A DNA stretch of 64,000 nucleotides from Elusimicrobia bacterium GWB2_63_16 (GCA_001799715.1 MGTZ01000028.1:10954-74953), one strand, 5' to 3'; numbered from the stretch's first letter, positions 12,253 through 52,812 are shown. Program-made: numbers and translations. The notes: generated from the sequence alone by a model not told the origin.

Positions 12253-12324
12253 TGGGCCATACGGGATTCGAACCTGTAACCTTGCGCTTAAGAGGCGCCT
12301 GCTCTACCGTTGAGCTAATGGCCC
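12253..12324 (-). tRNA. tRNA-Lys (anticodon CTT)
   Basis: Reverse complement GGGCCATTAGCTCAACGGTAGAGCAGGCGCCTCTTAAGCGCAAGGTTACAGGTTCGAATCCCGTATGGCCCA. 72 nt cloverleaf with anticodon loop CTCTTAA. One A-C mismatch in the T stem. Confidence 0.85.
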
Positions 12325-40439: not shown

Positions 40440-40620
40440 AGAAAAAGCCCCGAAGCTGTCTTCAGGGCTTTAACCGCGCGGCAAGGCGTAGCCGTCCGCG
40501 CGGGGTCGTTCTTCTATCATCCGGACTTTACCGTCGGCCCCGGAGTTACACCGGATCTGCTCGTAAGAGCTTGCGGGCTTTACCGCCGGTGGGGAAATGC
40601 TCCCCGCCCTGAAGAACTAC
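40440..40620 (-). promoter_or_regulatory. FMN riboswitch (RFN element) with terminator/SD-sequestering hairpin
   Basis: Minus strand reads GTTCTTCAGGGCGGGGAGCATTTCCCCACCGGCGGTAAAGCCCGCAAGC...GATCCGGTGTAACTCCGGGGCCGACGGTAAAGTCCGGATGATAGAAGAAC, with P1 at 40611-40617 / 40508-40514. Then a 9-bp hairpin (40447-40468) plus U5, ending 2 nt before the ribBA AUG. Confidence 0.85.
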
Positions 40621-40626
40621 AGGGAT

Positions 40627-40632
40627 ATTATA
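40627..40632 (-). promoter_or_regulatory. TATAAT -10 box for the rib leader
   Basis: Reverse complement of attata at 40627-40632. Sits 4 nt after the stop of the upstream fibre gene and about 7-10 nt before the riboswitch P1. Confidence 0.4.
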
Positions 40633-40636
40633 GCAC

Positions 40637-43600
40637 TTACTCCACGGTCGAACATATAGCGTACGCGGTTATATCCACGTTTGAGGCGAATTCGCAGGTC
40701 CAGACGGTATCGCTGGACGGGTAGGACTTCAGCAGGTTCACGGTCCCGGTCTGCGTGCAGCCGCCGCCCATCAGCACTTTGCCCGCCGTACAGCCGGCGG
40801 CGCAGATCGTATTAGCGGGACAGGGGGCGCTCACGCGCTCGCGCGAGGCGGCGAAACCGGTGGCCTTCACCTTGCCGGCCACGTCCAGCCGCTCGGCCGG
40901 GGAGGCGACGCCTATGCCCACGGTGCCGTTGGCCCTGACCACCAGGGTCGAACCTACTACCTCCAGCACGCTCTGCGTACCGGCGAGGCCGCCGCCGAGG
41001 ACGGAGGCCGAGGCGGAGAACAGCGAGTAGCCGTCCACGTGCAGCCTGGCCTGCGGCGCGCCGGTGTTGACGCCCAAGGACCTGGACGCCGTAGAGACGT
41101 ACAGCGCGGGGGTGGAGCCCGCGCCCGAGACGCTGACGGTCAGGTCGGTGGCCACGTGCAGGCGCGAGGCCGGGAGGAAATTCTTGTCGACCTCGCCGAC
41201 GATGAACGGTCCGGTATCCTTGATCCTGAAGGCCTGCACGCCGTTGCCCAGCGTGGTGGCGCCGCCGCGGTAGACGAGGTCGCGCTCCGAAGAGACCATC
41301 CCCAGCACGCCCTTCTGCGGGGTGGCGCCCTCGTTCCAGACTATATACGAGTTGCCGCCCAGGTTGGGGTACAGAGACAGGACCACTTCTTCGCCCGCCT
41401 TCTGGTCCAGGCGCAGCTGGCCCTTAAGATGGAGGTCCGACTGCGGGTTGAACAGGCCGCCAACGGCCAGCTTATTCTGCACGTAGACGCTGGTGCTGAA
41501 CAGCACGGCGTCGTAGAGGCCGCCGGTGCGGGCGGTGATGGTGGAGATCTGTATCAGGCCGGGCAGAGAATCCGTCACCAGGTTCGTCAGGCCCGAACCG
41601 TCGCCGAAGAAGCCGCCCTGCGCCGTTACGGAGGAGACGGCGTTGATGCCGCCGTTGACGGTGAGCAGGTGGGTCTGCGCCGTAGTGCCGATGGAGACCT
41701 TGCCGGCCGTTGTGCTGACGTAAAGTAAGGGCATGGCGTTGGCCGTGGCGCTGCTCACGAGCAGGTTCGCCATCACGTGGAATTTCTCGCGCGGCTGGTC
41801 CGCCGGGCTCGGCGAGCTGCCTATGCCGAACAGCCAGTTGCCGTACTGGTCGGCCTTTACGCGGAAGACTTCCTGGCCGCCGTTCCACGGGTCGCTGCCG
41901 ACCGCCCTGTAGATAAGGTCGCGCTCGAGGCCGCCGGGATAGCCCAGCACGCCAAGGTTCACGCCGCCGGAAGCCACCAGAGAGGAGTTGGTCCAATGTA
42001 TGTAGCTGTAATCGTTATAAGACTTGATGCTCAGTTTGGCCGCGCCGGTGACGGTGTTGGCGTAGGAGACCATGGCCTCGCCGGCCACGTCCAGCGGGGC
42101 GGCGGGGGCAGGCACCAGGACGCCCACCCTGCCGGCCGTGGTGACCGCCAGCGTATACGCGTTGGAGGTGGCCGAGCTGGACACCGTGAGGGCGTATTTA
42201 TGAGCGCCGAAGGAGGCCAGCGTGGCGCTGGCGGGTGAGACTATAAAGTTGCCGGTCATCGTATCCCCGGCCTTGAGCAGCTTGGTGGAGTCGGTGCCGG
42301 TCACGCTGGTGAGCAGCGAGCCGTTGCCGACGAAATACGGCGCGTTGACCACGCCGGCGCGCACCAGCACGCCGCTGGCCGTATCCAGGCTGTAAGTGGT
42401 CCCGGGGTCCCAGCCCCATATGGTGCCGGTGGTGGCCGTCACGTTGTAGAAGTTGCCGATGCCGGAGGGGGCGTGCACGGAGGCCGCGTGCATGGAGCCC
42501 TGGGCCGTAATGCTGGAGGTGGCGATGATGCCGCCGCCCACGGTCAGGCGGGCCAGGTAGGAGGCGCTGCCGATAGCGGTATTGCCGCCGAGCACCGAGA
42601 GGCTGGAGCCGCCCACGGAGAAGGCGCTGCCGGTCACGGTCAGCGTGGAGCCGGCGAGGGTCAACTGGCCGGTCATCGTGTCGCCGGCCTTGAGCACCTT
42701 GCTGGTGTCGGAGGAGATAAGGTTGATCAGGCCCGACCCGTCGCCGTAGAAAGTGGCCCCGGGCATCAGGTAAACGTGGGAGCTTATGAATATACCTCCG
42801 CGCTGCGCGGCGGCGGCCGAAGAGAGTTCTATCCCGCCGGCGAATTTGATCTTGGGGGACAGCAGGCCCTCGGCCGAAGCCACGGTCAGGGTGGAGCCGG
42901 AGAGGGTCAGTTGGCCCGTCATCGTGTCGCCCGCCTTGCGCAGCACGCCGGTGAGCGTGGTGCCGTCGCCGTAAAAAGAGCCCCCGTGCACCTGGCCCAG
43001 GCCGTTAACGAGGAACAGCTGGGAGGTGCCGGTGGAGACCAGCAGCAGGTCGCCGGTGTCGCCGGCGGCGGAGGAAATGTGCAGCCTGGCCTGCGGGTTG
43101 GTATTGTTCTGGCCGATGGACACGTTGCCGGGATTGATGGAGTAGACATGGGGGCCGGCCACTTCCCACATGGTCAGGGCGGCGGCCCTGGTCTGCACGG
43201 ACCCGTCGGGGAACTTGAAGCCGCAGGAGAGATCGTCGGCGCAGGCCGGCAGGGAGCCTTTGCTCTCCACCATGCCGGCCACGGCCAGGGTCTGGCCGGG
43301 GGAAATGGAGCCTACCGAGATGCCGCCCAGCACGAACAGGTTGGTGGAGATGGTGATCGCCCCGTTGGCGGTGGTGGGGTGCGCGCCGATGGTGTCGGCC
43401 AGGAACATGGAGGTGGCCACGGAAGAGGTGGTGGCGTAGACGGAGCTGAAAGAATACGGGGAAGCCTGCAGCTTGACGCGGGGGGACATGGCCTCGAAAG
43501 CGCCGGCGCAATCGTTGTCGCCGTCCACCTGGATCTCCAGCCACAGGCCGTCGCGCTCGGCGAAGATACTGGCGGGGATGCCGCCGGCTACCGCGGAACC

Positions 43601-43858
43601 TATCTCCACGTCATAGCGGCCCTTGGTCACCCTGACGTCGCAGCGGGTCTCGGAGAACAGCGGGCTGGTGATGCCGGTGGGAGTATCGTAGATATAGAAC
43701 TTCAGGTCCTGCGGCGTTTCCACCGGCAGGTTGGTGATCTTGCTGATCAGGTAGCCCTGGTAGTTTATCGTCGGGGTTATCACGGCGGCGGCTGGCGCCG
43801 CGAGCAGCAGCGCGCCCAGCGCGCCTGCGAGCAGATTTTTAACGTGAGTAGAATTCAT
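40637..43858 (-). CDS. Large secreted tail-fibre-like repeat protein with Cys-rich C-terminal knob
   Basis: 1073 aa with signal peptide and an N-terminal INYQGYL module. Repeated F(Y/F)GDGSGL..(L/V) and LKAGDTMTGQLTL(A/S)GSTLTV motifs (aa 295-326, 369-408, 508-540, 749-762). Duplicated ARLHV modules. Last ~70 aa contain 6 Cys. GGAGG SD. Confidence 0.8.
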   Translation of the reverse strand: MNSTHVKNLLAGALGALLLAAPAAAVITPTINYQGYLISKITNLPVETPQDLKFYIYDTPTGITSPLFSETRCDVRVTKGRYDVEIGSAVAGGIPASIFAERDGLWLEIQVDGDNDCAGAFEAMSPRVKLQASPYSFSSVYATTSSVATSMFLADTIGAHPTTANGAITISTNLFVLGGISVGSISPGQTLAVAGMVESKGSLPACADDLSCGFKFPDGSVQTRAAALTMWEVAGPHVYSINPGNVSIGQNNTNPQARLHISSAAGDTGDLLLVSTGTSQLFLVNGLGQVHGGSFYGDGTTLTGVLRKAGDTMTGQLTLSGSTLTVASAEGLLSPKIKFAGGIELSSAAAAQRGGIFISSHVYLMPGATFYGDGSGLINLISSDTSKVLKAGDTMTGQLTLAGSTLTVTGSAFSVGGSSLSVLGGNTAIGSASYLARLTVGGGIIATSSITAQGSMHAASVHAPSGIGNFYNVTATTGTIWGWDPGTTYSLDTASGVLVRAGVVNAPYFVGNGSLLTSVTGTDSTKLLKAGDTMTGNFIVSPASATLASFGAHKYALTVSSSATSNAYTLAVTTAGRVGVLVPAPAAPLDVAGEAMVSYANTVTGAAKLSIKSYNDYSYIHWTNSSLVASGGVNLGVLGYPGGLERDLIYRAVGSDPWNGGQEVFRVKADQYGNWLFGIGSSPSPADQPREKFHVMANLLVSSATANAMPLLYVSTTAGKVSIGTTAQTHLLTVNGGINAVSSVTAQGGFFGDGSGLTNLVTDSLPGLIQISTITARTGGLYDAVLFSTSVYVQNKLAVGGLFNPQSDLHLKGQLRLDQKAGEEVVLSLYPNLGGNSYIVWNEGATPQKGVLGMVSSERDLVYRGGATTLGNGVQAFRIKDTGPFIVGEVDKNFLPASRLHVATDLTVSVSGAGSTPALYVSTASRSLGVNTGAPQARLHVDGYSLFSASASVLGGGLAGTQSVLEVVGSTLVVRANGTVGIGVASPAERLDVAGKVKATGFAASRERVSAPCPANTICAAGCTAGKVLMGGGCTQTGTVNLLKSYPSSDTVWTCEFASNVDITAYAICSTVE

Positions 43859-43873: not shown

Positions 43874-45490
43874 TTACCTGACCACGACCACGGTGCCGTT
43901 ATAGACGGTGCCGTCGGCCTCCAGCTGGTAGATGTAGACCCCGCCCGGCACCGCCTGGCCGCCGGCCTTGGCGTCCCAGACGAGGGAATTGGACACGGGA
44001 CCGCCCGTCATGCTGCCCACCAGGGCGCCGCGCAGGTCGTAGATCTTGCCTTTCACGCTCTTCTCCTGCGGGTTGTCGAAAATAAAGACCATCGTATCAT
44101 TTTTGCCGTCCCCGTTTGGAGTGATCAGGCGGTTGGTCAGGCCGGCTTTGTCCGCCGAGAAACCGCCGCTGCGCTCGGTGGTCCGCAGCTGGTAGCGCCC
44201 CAGCAGCCTGGTGTCCAGGCGCACGCTGCGCTCGTCCTCGTCGACTATGCCGTACATCTGCAGCCAGCGCGCGCCGTTGAAGTAGTACATGCTCAGCGCC
44301 TTGGCGTCCGCTCCGGCGGAGGGAACTATCGCGCCGCCGGCTTTGGCGTAATAGAGTTTCAGCGTGCCCTTGCTGGCCAGCTGGAAGAGCGGGTCAGCCT
44401 GCAGACCGCCGCGGTAGGCGGAGAACTCCACCGATTTGACCACGCGCCCGCTCAGGTCCTCGATATGCGTGGAGATGTCGAGAGTGTAGACGTCCATCGG
44501 ATCGGCCGAGGGGGAGAAGAAGCTGCCGGTGCCCTCCTGCGGCACCTCGAAGACGCTCTGGTTGTCGGGGGCCAGGAAGTAGAGGCCGCCCGACTCGCTG
44601 GAACGCACGTACGAAGGCAGCGAGACGCCGGCCTGGTTCACCGCGCGGGCGTGGTAGTAGTAGGGATCGGCGGTGGGAACGATGTCCGTCCAGTTCAGCG
44701 TGCTGGAGGAGGTTTCGGCGATCTGCACCCACTCCGCGTCGGCGGGAGCCGTGGCGCGGTAGACCTCGTATCTCTTTACCTCATAGGGGTACGACGGGCT
44801 GAAGCGGTTGTCGAAAGGGATGCGGTTCATGTACCCGGCCGGCGGGATCCAGGTCATGGTGACGGCGTTGCCGGTGCGCGCGAGCTGGAAGTTCATCGGG
44901 GCCAGCGGGGTCAGGGCCAGCGCCGCGGCGGCGTTGGAGATCTCCGAGCGCAGGTAATGGCTGTTGAGCGTCTCCATGGCGAAGTAATAGGTGGTGCCGG
45001 CCTGGAACCCCTCTACGATCCGGCTCTCGCGCGTGCCGGGCTCCAGCGGGACCCAGTCCTGGCCGTAGACCTGCGCCGCCGCGAAGCCCTCGTCGGTGGA
45101 GACCGGGGCGACGGAGCTGTAGCGCAGTATATAATAGCCGGCGGCCTCGGCGTTCCGGCTGGCGTCGGCGGAGGGGGCCGTCCAGGTGAGCCGGATGGAA
45201 TAACTGGAGACTATCACCGGCGTCAGGTCGAAGACCGGGGCGGGGAAAGGGTAATAAGCCAGCTTGCCGCTGCGGTGGATCAGACCGGAGGCCTCCTGCG
45301 TGGAGACGGCCAGGTCCTGCACGTTGCCGTTCATCTCGAAACTCGGCGAGACCATGTAGGAGGAGCCGTTGCCGGTGGCGCCGGTGATGTCTATGAAATT
45401 CGCGGAGGTGAGCCGGGAGGCGCGCGCCTGCCCGGCCGGCAGCAGGGCCGACAGGGCGAGCAGGGAAAAGAAACAGCGCCTGAAGTTCAC
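43874..45490 (-). CDS. Secreted protein with two FN3-like domains and a CHU_C / T9SS-type-B-like C-terminal domain
   Basis: C-terminus ITPNGDGKNDTMVF...KIYDLRGALV...WDAKAGGQAVPGGVYIYQLEADGTVYNGTVVVVR. FN3-like LTWTAPS / MTWIPPAG modules. I prefer the GTG at 45490, directly before the signal peptide FRRCFFSLLALSALLPAGQARA and 6 nt after a TATAAT. The track start is the ATG at 45562. Confidence 0.75.
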   Translation of the reverse strand: MNFRRCFFSLLALSALLPAGQARASRLTSANFIDITGATGNGSSYMVSPSFEMNGNVQDLAVSTQEASGLIHRSGKLAYYPFPAPVFDLTPVIVSSYSIRLTWTAPSADASRNAEAAGYYILRYSSVAPVSTDEGFAAAQVYGQDWVPLEPGTRESRIVEGFQAGTTYYFAMETLNSHYLRSEISNAAAALALTPLAPMNFQLARTGNAVTMTWIPPAGYMNRIPFDNRFSPSYPYEVKRYEVYRATAPADAEWVQIAETSSSTLNWTDIVPTADPYYYHARAVNQAGVSLPSYVRSSESGGLYFLAPDNQSVFEVPQEGTGSFFSPSADPMDVYTLDISTHIEDLSGRVVKSVEFSAYRGGLQADPLFQLASKGTLKLYYAKAGGAIVPSAGADAKALSMYYFNGARWLQMYGIVDEDERSVRLDTRLLGRYQLRTTERSGGFSADKAGLTNRLITPNGDGKNDTMVFIFDNPQEKSVKGKIYDLRGALVGSMTGGPVSNSLVWDAKAGGQAVPGGVYIYQLEADGTVYNGTVVVVR

Positions 45491-45496
45491 AATGTA

Positions 45497-45502
45497 ATTA
45501 TA
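45497..45502 (-). promoter_or_regulatory. TATAAT -10 box 6 nt upstream of the GTG at 45490
   Basis: Reverse complement of attata at 45497-45502, within the AT-rich divergent intergenic region. Confidence 0.4.
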
Positions 45503-45594
45503 TACCGGCCGTGCGACCAAAATATTACAAAGAGATTTCGGCTTACGCCGGGCAGAATCCATAAATATGAAACAAAACAGTCACAAATGAAAAG

Positions 45595-45608: not shown

Positions 45609-46010
45609 ATGAAGCCCTGCAAAGCCGTTCTCAGCCTCCTCGCCGCGCTGGCGCTCGCCCCCGCGGCGGCGTTCTGCTCCGCGTCGGCGCTCGGCCGCTC
45701 CGTGGCGCTCAACCGCCTGGTGACGCCCAACAACGACAAGAAGAACGACACTTTTATTTTCCGCTGCTATAACCCGCGCGACGCGGCCGTGGACGCGAAG
45801 ATCTACGACCTCGCCGGCCGCGAGGTGGCCCAGATGCGCCTCAAGCAGCGCTCCAACGGCACGCCGCCCGTACAGGACAACAGCTCGGGAGAATTCTACG
45901 ATCTGGAGTGGGACCCGAACCGGGGGGAGAAGTACCCCGGCGGCGTCTACGTCTACCAGGTCCGGACGGAAGAGCAGGTGTATAAGGGTACTGTAGTCAT
46001 TATAAGGTAA
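45609..46010 (+). CDS. Stand-alone CHU_C / T9SS-type-B-like sorting-domain protein (signal peptide plus domain only)
   Basis: 133 aa. Signal peptide, then LVTPNNDKKNDTFIF...KIYDLAGREV...WDPNRGEKYPGGVYVYQVRTEEQVYKGTVVIIR, collinear with the C-terminus of the 43874 gene. Confidence 0.75.
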   Translation: MKPCKAVLSLLAALALAPAAAFCSASALGRSVALNRLVTPNNDKKNDTFIFRCYNPRDAAVDAKIYDLAGREVAQMRLKQRSNGTPPVQDNSSGEFYDLEWDPNRGEKYPGGVYVYQVRTEEQVYKGTVVIIR

Positions 46011-46017
46011 GCGACAT

Positions 46018-47988
46018 ATGAACCGCGCCACCGCCACGAAGACCGCTCTGACCGCAGCCCTGCTGCTGGCGCCGCTTTGCGTACGGGCGGCCTTCGAGGA
46101 CCTGGGCTTCGGGGCCAGGGGCCCCGGCATGGGCGACGCCGTCACCGGCGTGGCCGACGACGTTTCCTCGGTCTACTACAACCCCGCCGGCCTCGGCGGC
46201 CTGGAGCGCCCGAAGGCGCTGGCCTCCCATTCCCTTTTCCACGGGGGGCTCAGCGACGGCTCCAGTCTGGGCCTCAGCGTGGCCGCGCTGGCCATGCCCA
46301 TAGGCAACGGCCGCCACGGCACCATCGGCGCGGCCTGGCAGGATTTCTCGCTCTCCGGCGTCTATTACGAGAAGACCGGCACCGTGGCCTGGGGCTACCG
46401 CTTCGACCGCGGCAGCCGCTACGAGAAACTTTCGGTGGGCGCGTCGCTGAAATACCTGTCGCACGGCTTCTCGCGCCTCGACGAGGCTTACAACGCCGTG
46501 ATGGAAAACCTCTCCCAGACCGGCGCCACGGACCCGGTGCTGGCCGGCGCCAACTCCCGCGGCGCCCTGGACGCCGATCTGGGCGCGCTGTACCGCCTCA
46601 CCAACCGGTGGACGCTCGGCGCGGCCATACTCAACGCCATGCAGGCCAACGTGGCTTTCAGCGAGTCCGACAAGGACCCCGTGCCCATGAAGGCCCGGCT
46701 GGGCGCCTCGTTCAAGAGCCTCTGGCTGCTCCTGTCCGCCGACGCCAGGCTGCAGAAGGGCCCCGACGGCAGCCTGGACAAGCAGTTCGTGGTGGCGGCC
46801 GAGAAGGTGTTCCCCAGCCTCGACCGCGGCGAGTTCGGCGTGCGGGGCTCGCTCGGCGCCGGCGACAGGGAATTCAAGCAGGCCACGCTGGGTCTCTCCT
46901 ACAAGATACAGCGCATACAGTTCGACTACGGCTTCATGCTGCCCATCGGAACGGTCAAAGAGACCTCCGGCAACCACCGCATGGCCCTGTCCTACCATTT
47001 CGGCACGCCTACCCAGTCCGAGATCGCCGAGAGCGAGCTGCTGGACCAGTACAAGCGCCTGCGCGAGACGCAGAACTACAAGGGCGCCCGCGATACCGCC
47101 AGCCTCAACGACCCCCGCCTGGCCGAAGTGAAAGAGCAGGTGCTGCGCGAGAATTATTACGCGGCCAACAAGCTGCTGGTGGCCAAGGCGGGCGAGCTGC
47201 TGCCCGATTCCTCCGTGGTCAACCTCACGCGCCGGCTCTCGGCCGTCGCGGCCTACTACCCGTCGCTGGCCCCCGAGCCGGGCCGCGGCCGCCAGCGCTG
47301 GGAGGACCTGCTCGCCAGCGGCGTAAGGGATTTCGTGAACGGCGCCGACAACCGCGCCATGAAGAAGCTGGCCTACGCCCAGAGCCTCAACCAGCAGGAC
47401 GGCGGGCTGGCCAACTTCCTGGACAAGGCCGGCGAGATCTCCCGCATTACGCCGGACAAGGTGCCGGCCGATTTCAGCCGCGGCTGGCCCGAGTACAAGC
47501 TGGACCAGTCCGACGAGTTCTACGCCAAGAAGCGCTATTCCGAGGCGCTGCGCAAGCTCGAGGAACTGCTGGACATAGAGCCGGCCTACCTGATGGCCCT
47601 TAAGAAGAGCGGCTCCTGCAACTATATGCTGGGCGCCTACTCCCGCGCCGCCCGCGACTGGGAGAAGGCCTCGCGCGCCGAGCCGGACCCGGTGGAGAAG
47701 GCCAAGCTGGCCAAGATGACCGCGGAGGCCCGCAAGAAGCAGGGCACGGAATCTTCCTGGGAGCCCGAGACCGGCTCCTACCGCGACGAAGCGGCGGGCG
47801 AGCCCGTGCTAACCGGCGCGGCGGCCAACGCCAGGGAGATCGAGAAGCTCTACCAGGCCGGGGCCGACGCCTACGCGAAGGGCGAATACGGCAAAGCGGC
47901 CGACGCCTTCCGCAAGATCCTGACGCTGGACCCGCAGAACACGCAGGCCAAGAAGGCCCTGGAGCGCATCATCAGGCTCTCCAGGTAA
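46018..47988 (+). CDS. Outer-membrane beta-barrel (PorV/PorQ/FadL-like) fused to a C-terminal TPR/helical domain
   Basis: Signal peptide. GARGPGMGDAVTGVADDVSSVYYNPAGLGG motif near the N-terminus, as in the PorV/PorQ/TraF/FadL-type barrels I recall. Alternating-strand pattern to about aa 330 (ends HRMALSYHF). Then TPR-like repeats to aa 656. Confidence 0.65.
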   Translation: MNRATATKTALTAALLLAPLCVRAAFEDLGFGARGPGMGDAVTGVADDVSSVYYNPAGLGGLERPKALASHSLFHGGLSDGSSLGLSVAALAMPIGNGRHGTIGAAWQDFSLSGVYYEKTGTVAWGYRFDRGSRYEKLSVGASLKYLSHGFSRLDEAYNAVMENLSQTGATDPVLAGANSRGALDADLGALYRLTNRWTLGAAILNAMQANVAFSESDKDPVPMKARLGASFKSLWLLLSADARLQKGPDGSLDKQFVVAAEKVFPSLDRGEFGVRGSLGAGDREFKQATLGLSYKIQRIQFDYGFMLPIGTVKETSGNHRMALSYHFGTPTQSEIAESELLDQYKRLRETQNYKGARDTASLNDPRLAEVKEQVLRENYYAANKLLVAKAGELLPDSSVVNLTRRLSAVAAYYPSLAPEPGRGRQRWEDLLASGVRDFVNGADNRAMKKLAYAQSLNQQDGGLANFLDKAGEISRITPDKVPADFSRGWPEYKLDQSDEFYAKKRYSEALRKLEELLDIEPAYLMALKKSGSCNYMLGAYSRAARDWEKASRAEPDPVEKAKLAKMTAEARKKQGTESSWEPETGSYRDEAAGEPVLTGAAANAREIEKLYQAGADAYAKGEYGKAADAFRKILTLDPQNTQAKKALERIIRLSR

Positions 47989-48015: not shown

Positions 48016-49347
48016 ATGAAATTATTCCACAAATTCAGCGCGGCCCTTATGGCCGCCGCTCTGGCGGCGGCCCTGCTGCTTTCCGGCATCTTCTTCAGCT
48101 TCCAGAACCGCACCGTGCGCCAGGCGCAGGAGGACCGCCTGCAGGCCCTGGCGCAGTCCGCGGCGGCCATGCTCGGCGAGGCAGAGCTGGCCGGCGACCC
48201 GCTGATGGCGGTGGATTACCTGTCCGGCTTGTGCTCGTCGCGGGCGGAGATAGCCGCCTGCCGCCTGGACATCGGCCGCGGCCTGCGGCCGGTGAAGACC
48301 CGCGGCAAGGCCCCGGCCCCGAAGGGGGACGTTCCCGTGCCGCGCGAGCTGCGCGGCGGCAAATATTCCGCGCAGCTGCTGTTCTCGTCGGCGGCGCTGG
48401 AGCGCGAGCGGCGCGAGGCCCTGGCCGGCGTCTGGCATGACCTGGCCGCCGCCTTCCTGGGCGCCATGGCCGCGGCGGCCCTGCTGGGCGTGCTGGTGGC
48501 CCGCCGGCTGACGCGGCGCCTGCGGCGGCTGGCCGAGGAGGCCGCGCTGGTGGGCGAGGGGCGCTTCGGCGCCAAGACCGACGCCTCCGGCTCCGATGAG
48601 GTGGCCGAGCTGGCCGGCGCTCTGAACGCGATGAGCGACCGCCTGCTCGAGCTGGAGACGATGAAGAAGAACTTCACCGCCTCCGTCACGCACGAGCTGC
48701 GCTCGCCGCTGGGGGTAATAGAGACCTACGCCGCGCTGCTCCTCAAGGAGAAGGAAAAATTCAGACCCGAGGACCTGGAGGTCTTCACGCGCATCAAGGA
48801 GAACGCCGGACGGCTGGCCAACTTCGTGACCGCCATGCTGGACCTGGCCAGGATCGAGCGGGGCCGGATGGACCTGCGCCCGGCCGCCGAGGACCCGCTG
48901 GCGCTCGCGCGAGATGCGGCCGACTTCCTCCGGCCTAAGGCGGAGGAGAAGGGGATAACCCTGGCGGTGGAAGGCGGCCCGCCCGGCGGCACCGCGCGGC
49001 TGGACCGCGAACTGGTCACGCATGTCCTCACCAATCTGCTCTCCAACGCCCTCAAGTTCACCCCGGCGGGCGGGAGCGTCACGCTGCGCGCCGCGCTTGC
49101 CGGCGGCAGGTGCCGGTTCGAAGTAGCCGACACCGGGCCCGGCCTGCGCGAAGGGGAAGCGCAAAAGCTGTTCGCCCCTTTCACGCAGGGCTCGGCGGCG
49201 CCCGGCCACGGCGGTACCGGCCTGGGCCTGGCCCTGGTGAAAGCCATCGCCGAGCTGCACGGCGGCAAGGCGGGCTGCGGCCCGGCCCCCGGCGGCGGCG
49301 CGGCGTTCTGGGTAGACCTGCCGGACGGCGGGGAAACCCCGAAATAA
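48016..49347 (+). CDS. Sensor histidine kinase (2 TM, HAMP, HisKA, HATPase_c)
   Basis: H-box FTASVTHELRSPLGVIE, N-box LTNLLSNALKF, and G-boxes DTGPGL / GGTGLGLA. Confidence 0.9.
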   Translation: MKLFHKFSAALMAAALAAALLLSGIFFSFQNRTVRQAQEDRLQALAQSAAAMLGEAELAGDPLMAVDYLSGLCSSRAEIAACRLDIGRGLRPVKTRGKAPAPKGDVPVPRELRGGKYSAQLLFSSAALERERREALAGVWHDLAAAFLGAMAAAALLGVLVARRLTRRLRRLAEEAALVGEGRFGAKTDASGSDEVAELAGALNAMSDRLLELETMKKNFTASVTHELRSPLGVIETYAALLLKEKEKFRPEDLEVFTRIKENAGRLANFVTAMLDLARIERGRMDLRPAAEDPLALARDAADFLRPKAEEKGITLAVEGGPPGGTARLDRELVTHVLTNLLSNALKFTPAGGSVTLRAALAGGRCRFEVADTGPGLREGEAQKLFAPFTQGSAAPGHGGTGLGLALVKAIAELHGGKAGCGPAPGGGAAFWVDLPDGGETPK

Positions 49348-49366
49348 CTTTGTAACCTGCTTTATA

Positions 49367-49372
49367 TACAAT
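49367..49372 (+). promoter_or_regulatory. TACAAT -10-like hexamer 6 nt upstream of the GTG at 49379
   Basis: AT-rich 30-nt gap after the kinase stop: tttatatacaatatagct GTG att ATG. Confidence 0.3.
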
Positions 49373-49378
49373 ATAGCT

Positions 49379-50830
49379 GTGATTATGACCGCACCCCTAC
49401 GCCTTTTAGCCGTCCTGTCCCTCTGCCTGACCCTTAACGCGGGCGCGCAGGAGGCCGACCCGGCCCTTTCGCCCACCGCCCAGGGCTCCGAGATCTCGGC
49501 CCGCATGCAGGAGGACGTGTCGAAGCTGCTCGAGGAACTGCTCGGCCGCGGCCGGGCCCGCGCTTTCGTCACGGTGGAGGGGGAGATAGTGCTCAAGAGC
49601 AAGAGCGAGTCCGGCTCCCCGCCCGAAGAGAACCTGACCCTGCCCGGCTACTCGGCCGTCAACATCCTCGAGAAGACCGGCGAGTACCTCAAGCAGCAGC
49701 GCGCCGAGAGCCAGCGCACCAGCGAGTTCCGCGTCAAGCGGCTCGCGGTTTCACTCGTTTTCGACCGCGCCGTCCCCGACGCCCGCGTGAACGCCATCAA
49801 GCTGATGATCGCCGAAGTGCTGCGCGTCAGCGAGCAGCGCGGCGACACCATCATCACCGCCAAGGCCGAAATGCTGCCCTGGTGGAAGAGCGCCCTCGAG
49901 GCGCCCGAGATCCGCCCGGTGCTGGTGGCCTCCGCCTTCGGCGCGCTGGCGCTCGGCGTGTTGCTGATCTTCGGCTACATCCTGGCCTCCAAGCTGCTCA
50001 GCGGCTTCGTGGACTACGCCCGCATCAACGGCCCCGCCGCGGCCGCCGCCGGCCCCGCGGGCGGCGCCCTGGGCGGCCCCGGAGAAAGCGAGGGCGGCGA
50101 GGTGGGCGAGTTCGGCGAGATCATAGACGTGGAGTCCAAGGCCGCCTCGGGCGGCGCCATGCTGACGGCCGGCTCCGCCTTCGATTTCATCGAAAAGCTG
50201 CCTCCGTCGGACTCCGCCGAGCTTATCGCGGACCTGCCCGACGAGGACGCCGCCATCATCATAGCCAACCTGGCCGACCGCAGGCCCCATATTTCCTCCA
50301 AGGTGCTGCTGGCGCTGCCGCCCGCCAAGCGCCAGTCCGTCTCCGCCTTCCTGCTGGGCCTCAAGCAGGCCGAGCCCGAGCGCGTCTACGAGATCGAGAA
50401 CGACCTGCGCCTGAAGCTCGAGAAAAGCCTCAAGGGCGCCGAGAAGCTGGGCCGCCTGCTGTCGCTGGTGGACGAGGGCGCCCGCAGCGAGATCATGGAC
50501 AATCTCAACCGCGCCGACCCGAAGGCCTCCGAGGAACTGCGCAGCAGGATGGTGACGTTCGACGACCTGTGCCGCCTCGAAGAGAAGAACCTCAAGCCGC
50601 TCGTGGTGTCGCTGCCGTACGCCGACTGGGCCACCGCGCTGGCCGGCGCCGGCGAGGTGGCCACGGGCAACGTGACCCGGCTGCTGCCCGAGGACGTGCG
50701 CCTGGTGGTCAAGGACCTGATGATGACCCGCCCCGAGGACGAGCGGGTGATCGGCGCCAGGGCCAAGATAATTTCCGCCGCGATGGACCTCAACGCGAAG
50801 GGCCGCATAGTCCTGAAGGGGGGCGCGTGA
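49379..50830 (+). CDS. FliF-like (ring-building motifs plus TM) / FliG-like fusion protein
   Basis: Signal peptide. Periplasmic part has LEELLGRGRARAFVTVEGEI and RLAVSLVFDR...IAEVLRVSEQRGDTIIT (FliF/YscJ RBM-like). TM at aa ~179-207 and a Gly/Ala linker. aa ~265-483 is collinear with FliG N/M/C (ADPKASEELRSRMVTFDDLCRLEEKNLKPLV...ATALAGAG...KGRIVL). Start is the GTG at 49379 or the ATG at 49385. Confidence 0.7.
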   Translation: MIMTAPLRLLAVLSLCLTLNAGAQEADPALSPTAQGSEISARMQEDVSKLLEELLGRGRARAFVTVEGEIVLKSKSESGSPPEENLTLPGYSAVNILEKTGEYLKQQRAESQRTSEFRVKRLAVSLVFDRAVPDARVNAIKLMIAEVLRVSEQRGDTIITAKAEMLPWWKSALEAPEIRPVLVASAFGALALGVLLIFGYILASKLLSGFVDYARINGPAAAAAGPAGGALGGPGESEGGEVGEFGEIIDVESKAASGGAMLTAGSAFDFIEKLPPSDSAELIADLPDEDAAIIIANLADRRPHISSKVLLALPPAKRQSVSAFLLGLKQAEPERVYEIENDLRLKLEKSLKGAEKLGRLLSLVDEGARSEIMDNLNRADPKASEELRSRMVTFDDLCRLEEKNLKPLVVSLPYADWATALAGAGEVATGNVTRLLPEDVRLVVKDLMMTRPEDERVIGARAKIISAAMDLNAKGRIVLKGGA

Positions 50831-52812
50831 GCCGCCCCGCCGACGCCTTCGACTCCGACCTGGACTACCTGTGGCGCGCCGTGGGCGAGGCCCAGGACGC
50901 CTCGTCCCGCTCCGAGGCAGAACGCGCCGAGGCCCGCAAAAGCCTCGCGCTCTATGCCTCCAGGGCCGCGCTGCTTGAGAAACAACTGGCCGAGAGCCAC
51001 GCCCGCGAGAGGCATTTGAAGGCCGAAGCCGAGAAGCTGCGCTCCGCCGCCGGGCTCGGCTCGGAACGGCTGGCCGCCGCCGCCGCGGCCGCGCGCGAAG
51101 CCGAAGAGCTGCGCAGCGCCCTGCTGCGCAAGGAGGGTGAGCTCGCCGCCGCCGCGCCCGAACTCGAGGACCTGCGCGCCAGATCGAAAAATCTGCGGGA
51201 GGCCCTGGCCGCCCGCGACGAGGCTATCGCCGCGTTCAGGGGCAAGCTCACGGCCATAATGGAACTGCCCGAGATAGACCGGTTGCTGCGCGCCGACGAG
51301 GCCGCCACCGGCAAGCCCCGCCCGCTTTACGAGGAACTGCTGGAACGCCTGGAAGCCTCCAGGCGCGCCGCCGCCGGCTCGGCCGCCGCGCTGGCCGCCG
51401 CCGCCGAAGGGGAGGCCGCAGCCCGCCTGACCCTGGAAGCCGCCGAAAAGGAACTGGCCGAACAGCGCGACGCGCTGCGGCAGAAGAATTTGGATCTGGA
51501 AGGGCTGAAGAAGGCTGTCAGCGAGGCCGCCTATCAGGCGAGGATCTCCGGGGAGGAGAAGCAGGCGCTGGAAAGCCGCGCCGCCGCCCTCAAGGCCGCC
51601 ATAGCAGAGAAAGAAGCCGCCCTGGCCGCGGCCGCCGACGAGTCCGCCTCGCTGCGCGCCCGCCTGGACGCCTCCCGGGAGGAGGCCGAGCGCCTGCGCC
51701 AGTCAGCCGACGAGCATTCGGTAAAGGCGCAGGAGCAGCGCAGCAATTTTTCGGGAGCGGTGAGCCAGGTCTTCGACCTGCAGAACCGCGCCGCCGCGCT
51801 CAAAACGGCGCTGGGCGAGGCGCAGGAGCGCAGCGCGGCCGCCGCCTCCATGCTCAAGGCCCGCGAGGCCGACCTGGAAAAGGTCAACGGCCTGCTGCGC
51901 GACGCCAAGGGCGCCCTGACGCAGGAGAAGGAAGTTTCCCGCCGGGAAATGGTGAAGATAAAGGCGCTGGAGGCCGAGATAGACGCCCTCAAGACCAAGC
52001 TGGGCGCCGCCGCCGATTATTCGGCGCGGCTGCTCAAGGCCGTGGAGGAGCGCGACCTGGCCCTGGGCGCCGGCAAGGCCGCGCAGGCGCAGGACGGCAA
52101 GAAGCTGGCCGACCTCGAGATCGAGAACGAGGACCTGCGCCGAAAGAACATAAAATTTACCGGCCTCCTCAAGCGCGAACAGGCCGATTTCTCGGCCAGG
52201 ATGCTGGTCTCGCTGGAGCGCTCCGCCAGGGAGCTCAAGAATTTCAACCTGCGCATCCCCGCCGCCGAGCGCAAGGCGCTCGAGCCCGCGCTGAAGACGC
52301 TTTTCGCCTCCGTGAACCTGCTCAAGGGCTGGCAGGAGTACCTGGACCCCGAGACCCCCGACATGGAAGACACCGACCTCGCCTCCCTGGTTTCCGTCGA
52401 GACCGGCAAGTGGGAACGCGCCTTCAAGCAGCGCAAGATCTCCATCACCGCCGCCATCCTCAACCCGCGGCTGCGCGCGCGGCTGGCGCCCGAGCGCGTG
52501 AAGATGCTGTTCTACAACCTCATCAAGAACGCCTACGAGCGCCTGCAGCAGGGCGGCAGCCTGCGCGTGACCATGAAGAGTTCCGACGACGCGCGCCTGG
52601 CCGTCTTCACCTTCGAGGACACCGGCCCCGGCTTCGCCCGCGAGGCGCTGGACAAGCTTTTCGCCCCGTTCAACACCACCGACAAGGGCAAGGCCGGCAT
52701 AGGCCTGGCCGTGGCGCGGCGCATAGCCGAGAAGCACGGCGGCACGCTGGAAGTCACCAACAAGAAAGAACGCGGGGCCATAGTGGAAGTGCGCCTGCCC
52801 CTGGGCGTATAA
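50827..52812 (+). CDS. Cytoplasmic long coiled-coil protein with C-terminal HATPase_c domain (kinase-like, H-box apparently degenerate)
   Basis: Track ORF 49882-52812 trimmed to the GTG at 50827 (GTGA overlap with the upstream stop). About 450 aa of Ala/Glu/Leu/Arg heptad-like sequence. C-terminus has N-box FYNLIKNAYERL and G-boxes EDTGPGF / GKAGIGLAVA. The H-box position reads VSLERSARELKN. Confidence 0.65.
   Translation: MSRPADAFDSDLDYLWRAVGEAQDASSRSEAERAEARKSLALYASRAALLEKQLAESHARERHLKAEAEKLRSAAGLGSERLAAAAAAAREAEELRSALLRKEGELAAAAPELEDLRARSKNLREALAARDEAIAAFRGKLTAIMELPEIDRLLRADEAATGKPRPLYEELLERLEASRRAAAGSAAALAAAAEGEAAARLTLEAAEKELAEQRDALRQKNLDLEGLKKAVSEAAYQARISGEEKQALESRAAALKAAIAEKEAALAAAADESASLRARLDASREEAERLRQSADEHSVKAQEQRSNFSGAVSQVFDLQNRAAALKTALGEAQERSAAAASMLKAREADLEKVNGLLRDAKGALTQEKEVSRREMVKIKALEAEIDALKTKLGAAADYSARLLKAVEERDLALGAGKAAQAQDGKKLADLEIENEDLRRKNIKFTGLLKREQADFSARMLVSLERSARELKNFNLRIPAAERKALEPALKTLFASVNLLKGWQEYLDPETPDMEDTDLASLVSVETGKWERAFKQRKISITAAILNPRLRARLAPERVKMLFYNLIKNAYERLQQGGSLRVTMKSSDDARLAVFTFEDTGPGFAREALDKLFAPFNTTDKGKAGIGLAVARRIAEKHGGTLEVTNKKERGAIVEVRLPLGV

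What the first reader, a model, noticed from the sequence alone, without database searches (positions are those of the whole stretch)
40637..43858. 1073-aa tail-fibre-like surface protein with repeated GDTMTG modules and a six-Cys C-terminal knob
Seen.
- A signal peptide, then an INYQGYL...LWLEIQV module.
- Four copies of an F-(Y/F/V)-G-(D/N)-G-S-x-L motif. Three are followed by LKAGDTMTG(Q/N) (nt 42881-42976, 42635-42754, 42239-42337).
- Two larger duplicated modules: YSYIHWTN...ERDLIYR...FRVK..., and NSYIVWNE...ERDLVYR...FRIK..., each ending near ARLHV or HV.
- The last ~70 aa (nt 40640-40846) read CPANTICAAGCTAGKVLMGGGC...WTCEF...AYAIC.

Established. GDTMTG-type and FxGDGSxL repeats are common in phage tail fibres and tail-fibre-domain proteins of bacteria.

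Inference. This is a long fibrous adhesin with a disulfide-stabilised binding tip. It is co-transcribed with the FN3/CTD protein and diverges from the motor genes, so it may be the payload or working end of the locus. No other phage genes are nearby.
Basis: partly seen in the sequence, partly recalled or inferred. Interest (0 to 1): 0.55.

Follow-up and report, generated by a model that had tools for sequence, protein, structure and literature searches.

The report
Swappable-tip surface fibre of Elusimicrobia
This gene encodes a long, probably three-stranded surface fibre of an uncultured groundwater bacterium (Elusimicrobia), related to the prey-grabbing fibres of Bdellovibrio and not a phage gene; its small binding tip has been exchanged repeatedly between close relatives.

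Summary
The window matches Elusimicrobia bacterium GWA2_64_40.

About 100 full-length orthologues (37-91% identity) exist, and every one that carries an organism name is from Elusimicrobia. In 6 of 6 genomes checked, the gene follows an fn3 + type-B-CTD-like gene and lies opposite a conserved block. That block holds a PorP/SprF-like barrel with TPRs, a small CHU_C protein, a HAMP kinase, a FliG-like protein, a GHKL ATPase and a response regulator. No phage genes are nearby.

Sequence and fold place it with the Bdellovibrio mosaic adhesive trimer (MAT) fibres:
- a signal peptide;
- the widespread N-terminal "YQG" beta-domain;
- a shaft of FxGDGSxL/GDTMTG repeats;
- two tandem beta-helix domains with capping loops (Bd2133: profile E 3.9e-9, Foldseek E 3.6e-9);
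- an exchangeable tip.

The six-Cys knob folds confidently (pLDDT about 96) into a resistin/PCSK9-C-terminal-like beta-sandwich. Cysteine covariation supports disulfides. Sister orthologues with 84-90% identical bodies carry unrelated tips, and the break falls exactly at a conserved P..RLDVxG junction.

Verdict: a new member of a known kind. The new points are its conserved locus and its tip. Interest is moderate.

The parts
40637..43858 (-). Fibre gene, 1073 aa plus stop codon
   Evidence: ORF list and translation. 100% identical to a hypothetical protein of Elusimicrobia bacterium GWA2_64_40.
43784..43858 (-). Signal peptide (aa 1-25)
   Evidence: By inspection of the translation. An AxA site is conserved in the orthologue consensus. 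No predictor was run.
43451..43780 (-). N-terminal beta-rich 'xxYQG...LWLEIQV' domain (aa 27-136); proposed cell-proximal anchor
   Evidence: pLDDT 84-92. Among the best-conserved parts of the protein, together with the adjoining shaft base at aa 161-200. A profile of it finds 15,462 representative proteins, nearly always at aa ~25-140. It matches the N-domain of a Bdellovibrio MAT at E 1.8e-9 after one profile iteration.
42179..43450 (-). Shaft (aa 137-560): GxKFPDGSVQ motif, three FxGDGSxL + KAGDTMTG repeats, capping-loop-like motifs at aa 244 and 425
   Evidence: Motif positions. Low monomer pLDDT, as expected for intertwined chains. Sub-threshold Chlorovi_GP_rpt hit and weak PHROG tail hits. 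The KAGDTMTGNL motif is shared with the tail fibre in PDB 8JOV.
41624..42178 (-). Beta-helix domain 1 (aa 561-745; the YSYIHWTN...ERDLIYR...FRVK module)
   Evidence: pLDDT 74-91. Family-profile positions 575-706 align to Bd2133 (8OND) residues 15-145. Duplicate of domain 2 at E 2e-11.
41474..41623 (-). Linker (aa 746-795) with the fourth FxGDGSxL motif
   Evidence: Motif at aa 750. Low pLDDT. Orthologues carry insertions here.
40874..41473 (-). Beta-helix domain 2 (aa 796-995; the NSYIVWNE...ERDLVYR...FRIK module), ending in the conserved GxVGIGxxSPxxRLDVxG junction
   Evidence: pLDDT 77-93. Family-profile positions 943-1030 align to 8OND residues 121-229. The junction is the breakpoint of tip exchange.
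40640..40873 (-). Six-Cys C-terminal knob (aa 996-1073), resistin/PCSK9-CRD-like beta-sandwich
   Evidence: Knob model pLDDT 95-98. Foldseek matches to PCSK9 C-terminal modules (TMq 0.62-0.65, rmsd 2.0-2.7 A), resistin, RELM-beta and the R2 pyocin fibre. Cys covariation. PCSK9_C3 hits in 6 of 37 relatives.
43874..45562 (-). Upstream co-oriented gene: fn3 + CHU_C (T9SS type-B-CTD-like) protein, 562 aa; candidate partner or anchor (inferred)
   Evidence: Pfam fn3 and CHU_C, and below-cutoff NCBIfam TIGR04131. 15-nt gap with GGAGG before the fibre ATG. Adjacent in 6 of 6 genomes.
45609..46010 (+). Small secreted CHU_C-only protein, 133 aa, divergently transcribed
   Evidence: Pfam CHU_C E 1.2e-7. 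Homologous to the CTD of the fn3 protein at E 1e-17. A small gene sits at this position in 6 of 6 genomes; Pfam recognises CHU_C in three of them (the window, L001, L010).
46018..47988 (+). PorP/SprF/PorV-family outer-membrane barrel with C-terminal TPRs, 656 aa; candidate outer-membrane anchor for the CHU_C proteins (inferred)
   Evidence: NCBIfam PorV_fam E 2e-14, below the curated cutoff. The L011 orthologue passes the Pfam PorP_SprF gathering score. Conserved position in 6 of 6 genomes.
48016..52812 (+). Rest of the conserved divergent block: HAMP histidine kinase (48016-49347), FliF/YscJ-like + FliG-like membrane protein (49379-50830), GHKL ATPase (50827-52812)
   Evidence: Pfam. Same order in 6 of 6 genomes. 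A functional link to the fibre is inferred from synteny only.

Best explanation
The gene encodes a Sec-exported, cell-surface, most likely homotrimeric fibre of the same kind as the Bdellovibrio mosaic adhesive trimer (MAT) fibres.

Proposed anatomy and mechanism:
- The conserved N-terminal beta-domain (aa 27-136) holds the base at the cell surface.
- Three chains intertwine through the FxGDGSxL/GDTMTG shaft (aa ~137-560).
- They then pass through two tandem triangular beta-helix domains with GxVGIGxxxPxxxLxV capping loops (aa ~561-995).
- The fibre ends in a small, independently folding head (aa 996-1073). This is a resistin/PCSK9-CRD-like beta-sandwich held by disulfides. From covariation the likely pairs are C1023-C1069 and C1034-C1055, plus an accessory C1013-C1019.
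- The head is the ligand-binding module. It is exchanged by recombination at the conserved P..RLDVxG junction, so close relatives display different tips on nearly identical shafts.

The ligand is unknown; it could be a glycan or a surface component of another cell or particle.

Shown here: the architecture, the homology to MAT fibres, tip exchange, the non-phage conserved locus and the fold of the knob.

Inferred: the trimer state, surface exposure, binding function, and anchoring of the N-domain to the adjacent fn3+CHU_C protein and PorP/SprF-like barrel.
For: - Family and taxon: about 100 full-length orthologues; every hit with an organism name is from Elusimicrobia, apart from one partial fragment labelled Actinomycetota.
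- MAT homology by sequence: the family profile against the PDB gives Bd2133 (8OND) at E 3.9e-9 across both beta-helix domains and the GxKFPDGSVQ motif. A single-sequence search also picks up Bd1334 (8ON4) weakly.
- MAT homology by fold: the top 12 Foldseek PDB hits are all MAT fibres (8OND E 3.6e-9; 8ONC TMt 0.64).
- N-domain: it matches a full-length Bdellovibrio MAT directly after the signal peptide at 24.3 bits, E 1.8e-9, after one profile iteration. This mirrors the MAT definition of a signal peptide followed by a conserved ~130-aa beta-rich domain (PMC10769870).
- Capping loops: six or more capping-loop-like motifs, compared with the MAT consensus.
- Tip exchange: at least two unrelated tip types. 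Four sister pairs are 84-90% identical in the body but only 10-17% identical after the junction.
- Knob: pLDDT 95-98. It resembles PCSK9 modules, resistin and the R2 pyocin fibre knob. C3/C6 are invariant in 37 of 37 relatives; C4/C5 are both present (22) or both absent (15) and never alone.
- The same knob sits on collagen-repeat or short stalks in small proteins, several with signal-peptide-like N-termini. This is consistent with a trimeric head.
- Conservation falls from the N-terminus towards the C-terminus, as expected for a fixed anchor and a variable tip.
- Synteny is conserved in 6 of 6 genomes.
Against: - No direct evidence for trimerisation, surface location or binding. Only a monomer model could be made, and its shaft segments have pLDDT below 50.
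- The direct N-domain comparison with the Bdellovibrio MAT is weak (hhalign E 0.003 and probability 11%; 8.5 bits with the narrow profile). It becomes convincing only through intermediate sequences.
- Foldseek E-values for the knob are modest (0.016). Sequence profiles of the knob find nothing in the PDB.
- The fibre has no recognisable outer-membrane translocation signal (no CTD, no autotransporter barrel). How it crosses the outer membrane is unexplained.
- A paralogous fibre (P0101) lies in a different context without CHU_C or PorP genes. The proposed anchor therefore cannot be general for this N-domain.
Confidence: 0.72

Rival explanations
1. The fibre is the externally displayed working part of a dedicated envelope machine encoded by the conserved locus. 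In this reading the PorP/SprF-like barrel with TPRs and the two CHU_C proteins hold it. The FliF/FliG-like membrane protein (with MotAB nearby in this genome), the GHKL ATPase and the two-component proteins move, deploy or sense through it. This would be a SprB/SprF-like motor-coupled adhesin in a phylum outside Bacteroidota.
For: - The eight-gene order is identical in 6 of 6 genomes at 40-50% fibre identity, and it persists where the rib operon is not adjacent.
- The block contains CHU_C/type-B-CTD-like domains and a PorP/SprF-family barrel.
- The FliG-like protein has a signal peptide, a YscJ/FliF-like part, a transmembrane segment and FliG_M/C domains.
- MotB and MotA lie 4-5 kb away.
Against: - Synteny is the only link.
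- The fibre itself has no CTD.
- No T9SS core gene was seen in the parts of the window that were annotated, and no paper in the library links Elusimicrobia with a T9SS.
- Conservation of MotAB next to the block could not be checked in other genomes.
- The regulators may simply control expression of a passive adhesin.
Confidence: 0.15
2. The fibre is a structural surface-coat or spacer fibre (S-layer-like or glycocalyx scaffold) rather than a specific adhesin. Tip replacement would then reflect escape from phages or predators that use the fibre as a receptor, not a change of ligand.
For: - It appears to be a single-copy orthologue: one copy at a fixed chromosomal position next to housekeeping operons in every genome checked.
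- The N-terminal half is highly conserved.
- Composition is Gly/Ala/Ser/Thr-rich.
- Mosaic identity dips also occur inside the beta-helix domains, not only at the tip.
Against: - The closest characterised relatives are adhesive fibres whose tips bind ligands (PMC10769870).
- The knob fold family (resistin, PCSK9 CRD, pyocin fibre knob) consists of binding modules.
- No lattice-forming domain was found.
Confidence: 0.1
3. It is a domesticated or remnant phage or tailocin tail fibre.
For: - GDTMTG and FxGDGSxL motifs, and weak PHROG tail hits (phrog_3639 E 3e-4).
- 132 viral structure matches at E<=1e-3.
- Weak Foldseek matches to T4 gp34, lambda gpJ, T7 gp17 and R2 pyocin fibres.
Against: - It has a Sec signal peptide.
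- No phage genes in 6 of 6 loci.
- No tblastn match in 50,697 phage genomes and no relative in IMG/VR.
- The N-domain is a cellular module placed after a signal peptide.
Confidence: 0.03

Closest known systems
Bdellovibrio bacteriovorus mosaic adhesive trimer (MAT) fibres: Bd2133, Bd1334, Bd3182, Bd2439 and others (Caulton et al. 2024, PMC10769870)
   Same: - About 1000 aa long.
- A signal peptide followed by a conserved beta-rich N-domain.
- A long shaft, then tandem beta-helix domains with capping loops. Sequence-profile E 3.9e-9 and Foldseek E 3.6e-9 to Bd2133.
- An independently folding, evolutionarily swapped non-S74 tip.
- Many paralogues with other tips in the same phylum.
   Different: - The host is a non-predatory-lineage groundwater Elusimicrobia MAG.
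- This member is a single conserved orthologue in a fixed locus with fn3+CHU_C, PorP/SprF-like+TPR and FliG-like genes. The one Bdellovibrio MAT locus examined here (L005) has no such neighbours, and the cell-surface anchor of MATs is not identified in the MAT paper.
- The tip is a resistin/PCSK9-like six-Cys sandwich, a fold not among the six MAT tips solved.
- Overall sequence identity is very low: only motif-level BLASTP matches.
Phage tail fibres and S74-chaperone fibres (T4 gp34/37, T5 pb1, K1F endosialidase, cyanophage tail-fibre-like proteins); Chlorovirus glycoprotein repeat (PF06598)
   Same: - Repeat motifs (KAGDTMTG, FxGDGSxL).
- Intertwined fibre and beta-helix architecture.
- Modular receptor-binding tips.
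   Different: - It has a signal peptide.
- There is no S74 domain.
- There is no tail module nearby, and no detectable sequence match to any deposited phage genome.
Resistin/RELM head domain, the three modules of the PCSK9 C-terminal Cys-rich domain, and the R2 pyocin fibre knob
   Same: - A small beta-sandwich of about 65 residues with several disulfides.
- It sits at the end of a trimeric stalk in resistin, and forms a pseudo-trimer in PCSK9 (PMC9238481).
- Foldseek TMq 0.62-0.65, rmsd 2.0-2.7 A and 22-24% identity to PCSK9.
- 6 of 37 bacterial relatives hit Pfam PCSK9_C3, best E 6.4e-5.
- Relatives sit on collagen stalks.
   Different: - It is bacterial.
- The query itself does not reach any Pfam or PDB sequence threshold.
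- The inferred Cys pairing (3-6, 4-5, plus a local 1-2) is not obviously the 1-6/2-5/3-4 pattern of PCSK9.
- Many relatives keep only one disulfide.
SprB/SprF and PG1035/PorP: type-B CTD proteins anchored by adjacent PorP-like barrels in Bacteroidota (PMC9143113)
   Same: The neighbours of the fibre are two CHU_C/type-B-CTD-like proteins and a PorP/SprF-family barrel encoded side by side. This is the same genetic logic as SprB-SprF.
   Different: - The phylum lies outside the FCB group.
- The barrel carries a C-terminal TPR domain.
- The fibre itself has no CTD.
- No T9SS core genes were seen in the annotated parts of the window, and the rest of the genome could not be examined.

Membership tests
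MAT-type chimeric trimeric fibres (Caulton et al. 2024) | Sec signal peptide | tested here: met
   By inspection of the N-terminus and the conserved AxA site in 80 orthologues. No predictor was run.
MAT-type chimeric trimeric fibres (Caulton et al. 2024) | [quoted passage not shown] | tested here: met
   aa 27-136 has pLDDT 84-92. After one profile iteration, hmmsearch against a full-length Bdellovibrio MAT (L005:1998-5360) gives 24.3 bits, E 1.8e-9, at aa 24-87 plus 119-148. The direct comparison is only weak.
MAT-type chimeric trimeric fibres (Caulton et al. 2024) | Beta-helix fibre domains with capping loops (V-G-G/N-pi-x-x-P-x-x-x-L) | tested here: met
   Family profile against 8OND at E 3.9e-9. 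Foldseek 8OND E 3.6e-9 and 8ONC TMt 0.64. Six or more GxVGIGxxxPxxxLxV-like motifs. Consensus taken from the paper.
MAT-type chimeric trimeric fibres (Caulton et al. 2024) | Variable, exchangeable C-terminal tip (S74 or non-S74) | tested here: met
   Tip counts among 80 orthologues: six-Cys 27, two-Cys 49, other 4. Identity drops from 0.8-0.97 to 0.1-0.17 at the junction in four sister pairs. No S74 domain.
MAT-type chimeric trimeric fibres (Caulton et al. 2024) | Homotrimeric, surface-exposed, adhesive | not testable with these tools
   Only monomer prediction was available. The low pLDDT of shaft segments is compatible with a trimer but is not proof.
Phage or tailocin tail fibre (as part of a prophage) | Encoded within a tail or baseplate gene module | tested here: not met
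   Neighbours are fn3/CHU_C, PorP-like, kinase, FliG-like, rib and nuo genes in 6 of 6 genomes.
Phage or tailocin tail fibre (as part of a prophage) | Sequence relatives in phage genomes | tested here: not met
   tblastn against 50,697 phage records gave none. IMG/VR gave none. Only weak PHROG hits and fold-level matches.
Peptidase S74 (intramolecular chaperone) fibres | C-terminal S74 domain with an SDxxxK motif | tested here: not met
   No Peptidase_S74 hit in Pfam. The C-terminus is the six-Cys knob.
T9SS cargo (type A or type B CTD) | C-terminal sorting domain on the protein itself | tested here: not met
   No CHU_C, Por_Secre_tail or TIGR04131 hit on the fibre. The small CHU_C protein used as a phmmer query matches only itself and the fn3 neighbour in the window.
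Resistin / PCSK9 C-terminal Cys-rich module (knob only) | Six-stranded two-sheet beta-sandwith of ~65 aa superposable on PCSK9 and resistin modules | tested here: met
   Knob model pLDDT 95-98. PCSK9: TMq 0.62-0.65, rmsd 2.0-2.7 A over 68 columns, probability 1.0, E 0.016. Resistin 1RFX/1RGX and RELM-beta 1RH7 also match.
Resistin / PCSK9 C-terminal Cys-rich module (knob only) | Three intramodule disulfides in a 1-6, 2-5, 3-4 pattern (PMC9238481) | tested here: inconclusive
   There are six invariant Cys. Covariation supports pairs C3-C6 and C4-C5, with C1-C2 left over.
Resistin / PCSK9 C-terminal Cys-rich module (knob only) | Sequence membership (Pfam PCSK9_C1/2/3) | tested here: inconclusive
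   The query knob gives no hit. 6 of 37 relatives hit PCSK9_C3, best E 6.4e-5. The single per-protein score seen, P0263 at 14.5 bits, is below the 26.7-bit gathering score. PDB profile searches were negative.
Trimeric autotransporter adhesins (YadA type) | C-terminal membrane-anchor beta-barrel | tested here: not met
   No YadA anchor in Pfam. The only trace is a YadA_head repeat in an insertion of one orthologue (P0083).

The most novel reading that the evidence does not exclude
The conserved locus encodes a previously undescribed Elusimicrobia envelope apparatus. In it, a MAT-type fibre is docked through its N-domain onto an fn3 + type-B-CTD-like protein, which is held by a PorP/SprF-like TPR barrel. 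The assembly is coupled to a FliF/FliG-like membrane rotor protein (with MotAB stators nearby), a GHKL ATPase and two-component sensors. That would make it a motor- or signal-coupled adhesin outside Bacteroidota. It would also name the long-sought cell-surface anchor of MAT-type N-domains.
Probability: 0.13. Interest if true: 0.8.

Novelty: new member of a known kind. Interest (0 to 1): 0.45.

Why it matters
MAT-type fibres were described only in 2024, in a predator, and their cell-surface anchor and export route are unknown. This finding bears on that in three ways.

1. The same architecture is a conserved, apparently single-copy feature of a whole clade of uncultured Elusimicrobia. It always sits next to a PorP/SprF-like barrel and two type-B-CTD-like proteins, which gives a concrete and testable candidate for the anchor.

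2. It gives a clean natural example of tip swapping at a defined junction. That is useful for engineering fibres and for reading strain-level ecology from metagenomes.

3. The resistin/PCSK9 Cys-rich module, described in a review as seen in only those two molecules, has bacterial look-alikes and probable homologues on trimeric stalks.

None of this overturns current views. The value is in annotating a large hypothetical-protein family and in the hypotheses it opens.

Tried and rejected
1. Prophage or tailocin origin. Rejected: no phage genes in six loci, and no matches in phage genomes or IMG/VR.

2. Fibre as T9SS cargo. Rejected: it has no CTD.

3. Functional link to the riboflavin operon. 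Rejected. An FMN riboswitch (111.5 bits) with its own TGcTATAAT promoter-like box starts 17 nt after the fibre stop codon, and the rib operon is absent next to the fibre in L012.

4. Fetching Bd1334 with the search for homologous proteins, using the fragment read from the 8ON4 alignment. No hit, so the search was wasted. It was solved instead with the genome-contig scan.

5. Direct pairwise or hhalign comparison of the N-domain with the Bdellovibrio MAT. Too weak to decide; it needed one profile iteration.

6. Sequence-profile searches of the six-Cys knob (A3, A6) and of the two-Cys tip (A5) against the PDB. Nothing was found. Pfam on the two-Cys tips gave only an insignificant ALTTAQ_rpt hint.

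7. Supplementary files of the MAT paper. No mention of Elusimicrobia, resistin or PCSK9.

8. Names for distant N-domain hits. Mostly unnamed metagenome proteins.

9. Paralogues in the window. None for the N-domain or the knob.

10. Anchoring as a general rule for this N-domain. Not supported: the paralogue P0101 has a different context.

Full report
**1. The observation**

ORF 40637-43858 on the minus strand starts with ATG and encodes 1073 aa.

The N-terminus (MNSTHVKNLLAGALGALLLAAPAAA|VITPT) has the form of a Sec signal peptide. It has no lipobox cysteine. This is my reading of the sequence; no predictor was run.

- F-x-G-[DN]-G-[ST]-x-L at aa 295, 370, 509 and 750;
- KAGDTMTG following the first three of these (aa 310, 392, 531);
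- ERDL[IV]YR at aa 645 and 858;
- six cysteines in the last 61 residues (1013, 1019, 1023, 1034, 1055, 1069);
- four further cysteines at 73, 117, 206 and 212.

The two large modules are a real duplication: aa 618-736 against 837-943 gives 33% identity, E 2e-11.

**2. Origin and family**

The protein is 100% identical to a hypothetical protein of Elusimicrobia bacterium GWA2_64_40.

- About 100 full-length relatives of 990-1300 aa and 37-91% identity were found.
- Every one that carries an organism name is from Elusimicrobia, apart from one partial fragment labelled Actinomycetota.
- An alignment of 80 of them (A1) shows that the N-terminal half is best conserved (up to 80% mean identity at aa 161-200).
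- Conservation declines towards the C-terminus, where repeat-sized insertions and deletions occur.

**3. Genomic context**

In the window the gene is preceded, 15 nt upstream, by a 562-aa protein with an fn3 domain and a CHU_C / type-B-CTD-like C-terminus. A GGAGG lies before the fibre ATG.

Divergently transcribed genes, in order:
- a 133-aa protein that is little more than a signal peptide plus a CHU_C domain;
- a 656-aa PorV/PorP/SprF-family barrel with C-terminal TPRs;
- a HAMP histidine kinase;
- a 483-aa protein with a signal peptide, a YscJ/FliF-like part, one transmembrane segment and FliG_M/FliG_C domains;
- a 661-aa GHKL ATPase.

An OmpR-type regulator converges on this block.

This order is identical in all six genomes examined: the window, L001, L003, L010, L011 and L012. 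Their fibres are only 40-50% identical to the query. The L011 barrel passes the Pfam PorP_SprF gathering score.

Downstream lies the riboflavin operon, but it is a separate unit:
- An FMN riboswitch (111.5 bits) begins 17 nt after the fibre stop codon.
- It is preceded by a TGcTATAAT box and followed by a terminator-like hairpin.
- In L012 the rib operon is not adjacent.

No phage gene is present in any of the six loci. The protein has no tblastn match in 50,697 phage genomes, and family-specific patterns found no relative in IMG/VR.

**4. What the protein is**

Curated libraries say little:
- a sub-threshold Chlorovirus glycoprotein repeat;
- weak PHROG tail hits;
- nothing in NCBIfam.

A single-sequence PDB search gave a marginal hit to 8ON4. 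The source paper identifies 8ON4 as Bd1334, a mosaic adhesive trimer (MAT) fibre of Bdellovibrio bacteriovorus (PMC10769870).

Three stronger tests followed.

(a) The profile of the 80 orthologues hits Bd2133 (8OND) at E 3.9e-9. It aligns both beta-helix domains and the GxKFPDGSVQ motif.

(b) An AlphaFold2 monomer model built with this alignment has confident domains at aa 30-130, 550-730, 800-1000 and 1005-1070. The repeat-bearing shaft segments have pLDDT below 50. Foldseek against the PDB returns only MAT fibres as its top 12 hits (8OND E 3.6e-9; 8ONC TMt 0.64), followed by weak matches to lambda, T4, T7 and pyocin fibres. Against viral models there are 132 hits at E<=1e-3, led by tail-fibre-like proteins and including S74 fibres.

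(c) MATs are defined by a conserved ~130-aa beta-rich domain right after the signal peptide. A profile of aa 27-136 found 15,462 representative proteins at E<=1e-3 in a library of 1.84 billion. The match almost always falls at residues ~25-140, in proteins of 112-3240 aa.

To test the N-domain directly, I recovered a full-length Bd1334-like MAT from B. bacteriovorus YOA24 (L005:1998-5360):
- The narrow Elusimicrobia profile matches it only weakly.
- After one iteration with the domains, it scores 24.3 bits, E 1.8e-9, at aa 24-87 and 119-148. This is directly after the Bdellovibrio protein's signal peptide.

The query also carries six or more copies of a GxVGIGxxxPxxxLxV motif. This corresponds to the MAT capping-loop consensus.

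The second refutation criterion, no fibre-like architecture, is therefore also not met. The protein meets every sequence-testable criterion of the MAT kind. Trimerisation and surface exposure could not be tested.

**5. The tip**

After the conserved junction P..RLDVxG (aa ~987-995), the 80 orthologues carry different C-termini:
- 27 have the six-Cys type;
- 49 have an unrelated two-Cys type (AQFGSG..KSTFTAEGFWQPR...DLCVSTGT..W..G..NC);
- 4 have a third form, which may be a divergent version of the second.

On a tree built from the body alone, tip types alternate between sisters. In four sister pairs, identity is 0.8-0.97 up to the junction and 0.10-0.17 after it. The query's closest differing relative, P0006 (84% overall), is one of these pairs. 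This is repeated tip exchange at a fixed breakpoint, as inferred for Bd2133 and Bd1334.

A knob-only model is confident (pLDDT 95-98). Its best structural matches are:
- the modules of the PCSK9 C-terminal Cys-rich domain (TMq 0.62-0.65, rmsd 2.0-2.7 A over 68 columns, 22-24% identity, probability 1.0, E 0.016);
- resistin and RELM-beta;
- the R2 pyocin fibre knob.

According to a review, each PCSK9 module is a six-stranded sandwich with three disulfides, and the three modules mimic the resistin homotrimer (PMC9238481).

A profile of the knob found 37 mostly small proteins (44-145 aa). Several have a signal-peptide-like N-terminus and a short stalk before the knob, and three have collagen repeats before it. 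The knob is therefore an independent module that sits on stalks, and on trimer-forming collagen stalks in at least three cases.

Among these 37 sequences:
- Cys3 and Cys6 are invariant.
- Cys4 and Cys5 are both present in 22, both absent in 15, and never present alone.
- This is direct covariation evidence for disulfides C1023-C1069 and C1034-C1055, which leaves C1013-C1019 as a local accessory pair.

Six of the 37 hit Pfam PCSK9_C3 (best E 6.4e-5), and it is the most frequent family among them. The query knob itself, and the knob profiles, reach nothing in Pfam or the PDB by sequence. Homology to PCSK9 and resistin is therefore likely but not proven.

**6. Mechanism**

Shown:
- the architecture;
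- homology to MAT fibres;
- the exchangeable tip;
- the disulfide-type knob;
- the conserved non-phage locus.

Inferred:
- The protein is exported by Sec and trimerises.
- It is held at the cell surface by its N-domain.
- It presents three knobs as a ligand-binding head.
- Recombination at the junction changes specificity without touching the shaft.

The best candidate for the anchor is the co-transcribed fn3+CHU_C protein, held by the PorP/SprF-like barrel. The analogy is SprB-SprF and PG1035-PorP (PMC9143113). Three points count against this:
- The evidence is synteny only.
- A paralogous Elusimicrobia fibre with the same N-domain lies in an unrelated context.
- No route across the outer membrane is evident, because the fibre has no CTD.

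**7. Rivals**

- A motor- or signal-coupled apparatus encoded by the whole locus remains possible, at about 0.15.
- A passive coat fibre whose tips change under phage or predator pressure is possible, at about 0.1.
- A phage remnant is essentially excluded.

**8. Novelty and score**

This is a new member of a known kind, the MAT-type chimeric fibres. The source paper already anticipated these in other bacteria with other tips.

The new elements are:
- the conserved, apparently single-copy locus with PorP/SprF-like, CHU_C and FliG-like genes in a phylum not linked to a T9SS in the searched literature;
- the cleanly resolved tip exchange;
- a bacterial resistin/PCSK9-like head.

Interest is 0.45.

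Noticed in passing
window 49379-50830 (+); also 56458-57084 (-) and 57089-57862 (-): A 483-aa protein combines a signal peptide, a YscJ/FliF-C-like periplasmic part, one transmembrane segment and cytoplasmic MgtE_N/FliG_M/FliG_C domains. That makes it a FliF-FliG-like fusion in a locus where no other flagellar genes were seen. It is conserved in 6 of 6 loci. MotB and MotA genes lie 4-5 kb away in this genome, behind a dCache-PAS kinase and two CheY-like receivers. Whether MotAB is conserved next to the block elsewhere could not be checked.
   Followed up: partly
window 46018-47988 (+), 45609-46010 (+), 43874-45562 (-): A PorP/SprF/PorV-family barrel fused to C-terminal TPRs lies next to two proteins with CHU_C (T9SS type-B-CTD-like) domains, in Elusimicrobia. 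This phylum is outside the Bacteroidota/FCB group, to which the T9SS is usually ascribed. No paper in the library links the two.
   Followed up: partly
window 40505-40620 (-), and 40440-40636: An FMN riboswitch (111.5 bits) sits 17 nt after the fibre stop codon. It is preceded by a TGcTATAAT box that starts 3 nt after the stop codon, and followed by a terminator-like hairpin before ribBA. No separate terminator for the fibre operon is visible, so read-through from the fibre gene would meet the riboswitch terminator.
   Followed up: partly
proteins P0260-P0296 (metagenomes): A family of small proteins (44-145 aa) made of a short stalk or collagen repeats plus the same knob; several have signal-peptide-like N-termini. 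The architecture resembles resistin. Many keep only the C3-C6 disulfide. The full-length fibre orthologues themselves were not returned by this search, so 37 is a lower bound.
   Followed up: partly
fibre aa 571-630 and 809-929 (window ~41970-42147 and ~41072-41434): Between the query and P0006, identity falls to 53-63% in the N-terminal parts of both beta-helix domains while the flanks stay at 90% or more. A similar dip is seen in P0037 against P0024. This suggests recombination tracts or diversifying selection inside the shaft as well as at the tip.
   Followed up: no
proteins P0101-P0120: Elusimicrobia and other metagenomic genomes carry many paralogous fibres. They share the same N-domain and GDTMTG-type repeats but have unrelated C-termini, including an FGE-sulfatase domain (P0114). 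Two genomes each hold the orthologue plus at least one paralogue: locus-tag prefixes DCS63 and A2049.
   Followed up: partly
orthologues P0067 and P0083: Some orthologues carry insertions near the second beta-helix that hit the grass-antifreeze beta-roll (LbR_Ice_bind, below gathering score) or YadA_head repeats. Extra repeat modules are therefore gained and lost in the distal shaft.
   Followed up: no
window 12045-12128 (-) and 12253-12324 (-): Two tRNA genes were found by the Rfam scan. They are unrelated to the finding.
   Followed up: no
loci L006-L008: The Bd1334 tip-proximal fragment has 34-41% identical relatives in a Saccharibacteria MAG, an Akkermansia MAG and a Planctomycetota MAG. 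MAT-like fibre segments are therefore spread widely across phyla.
   Followed up: no
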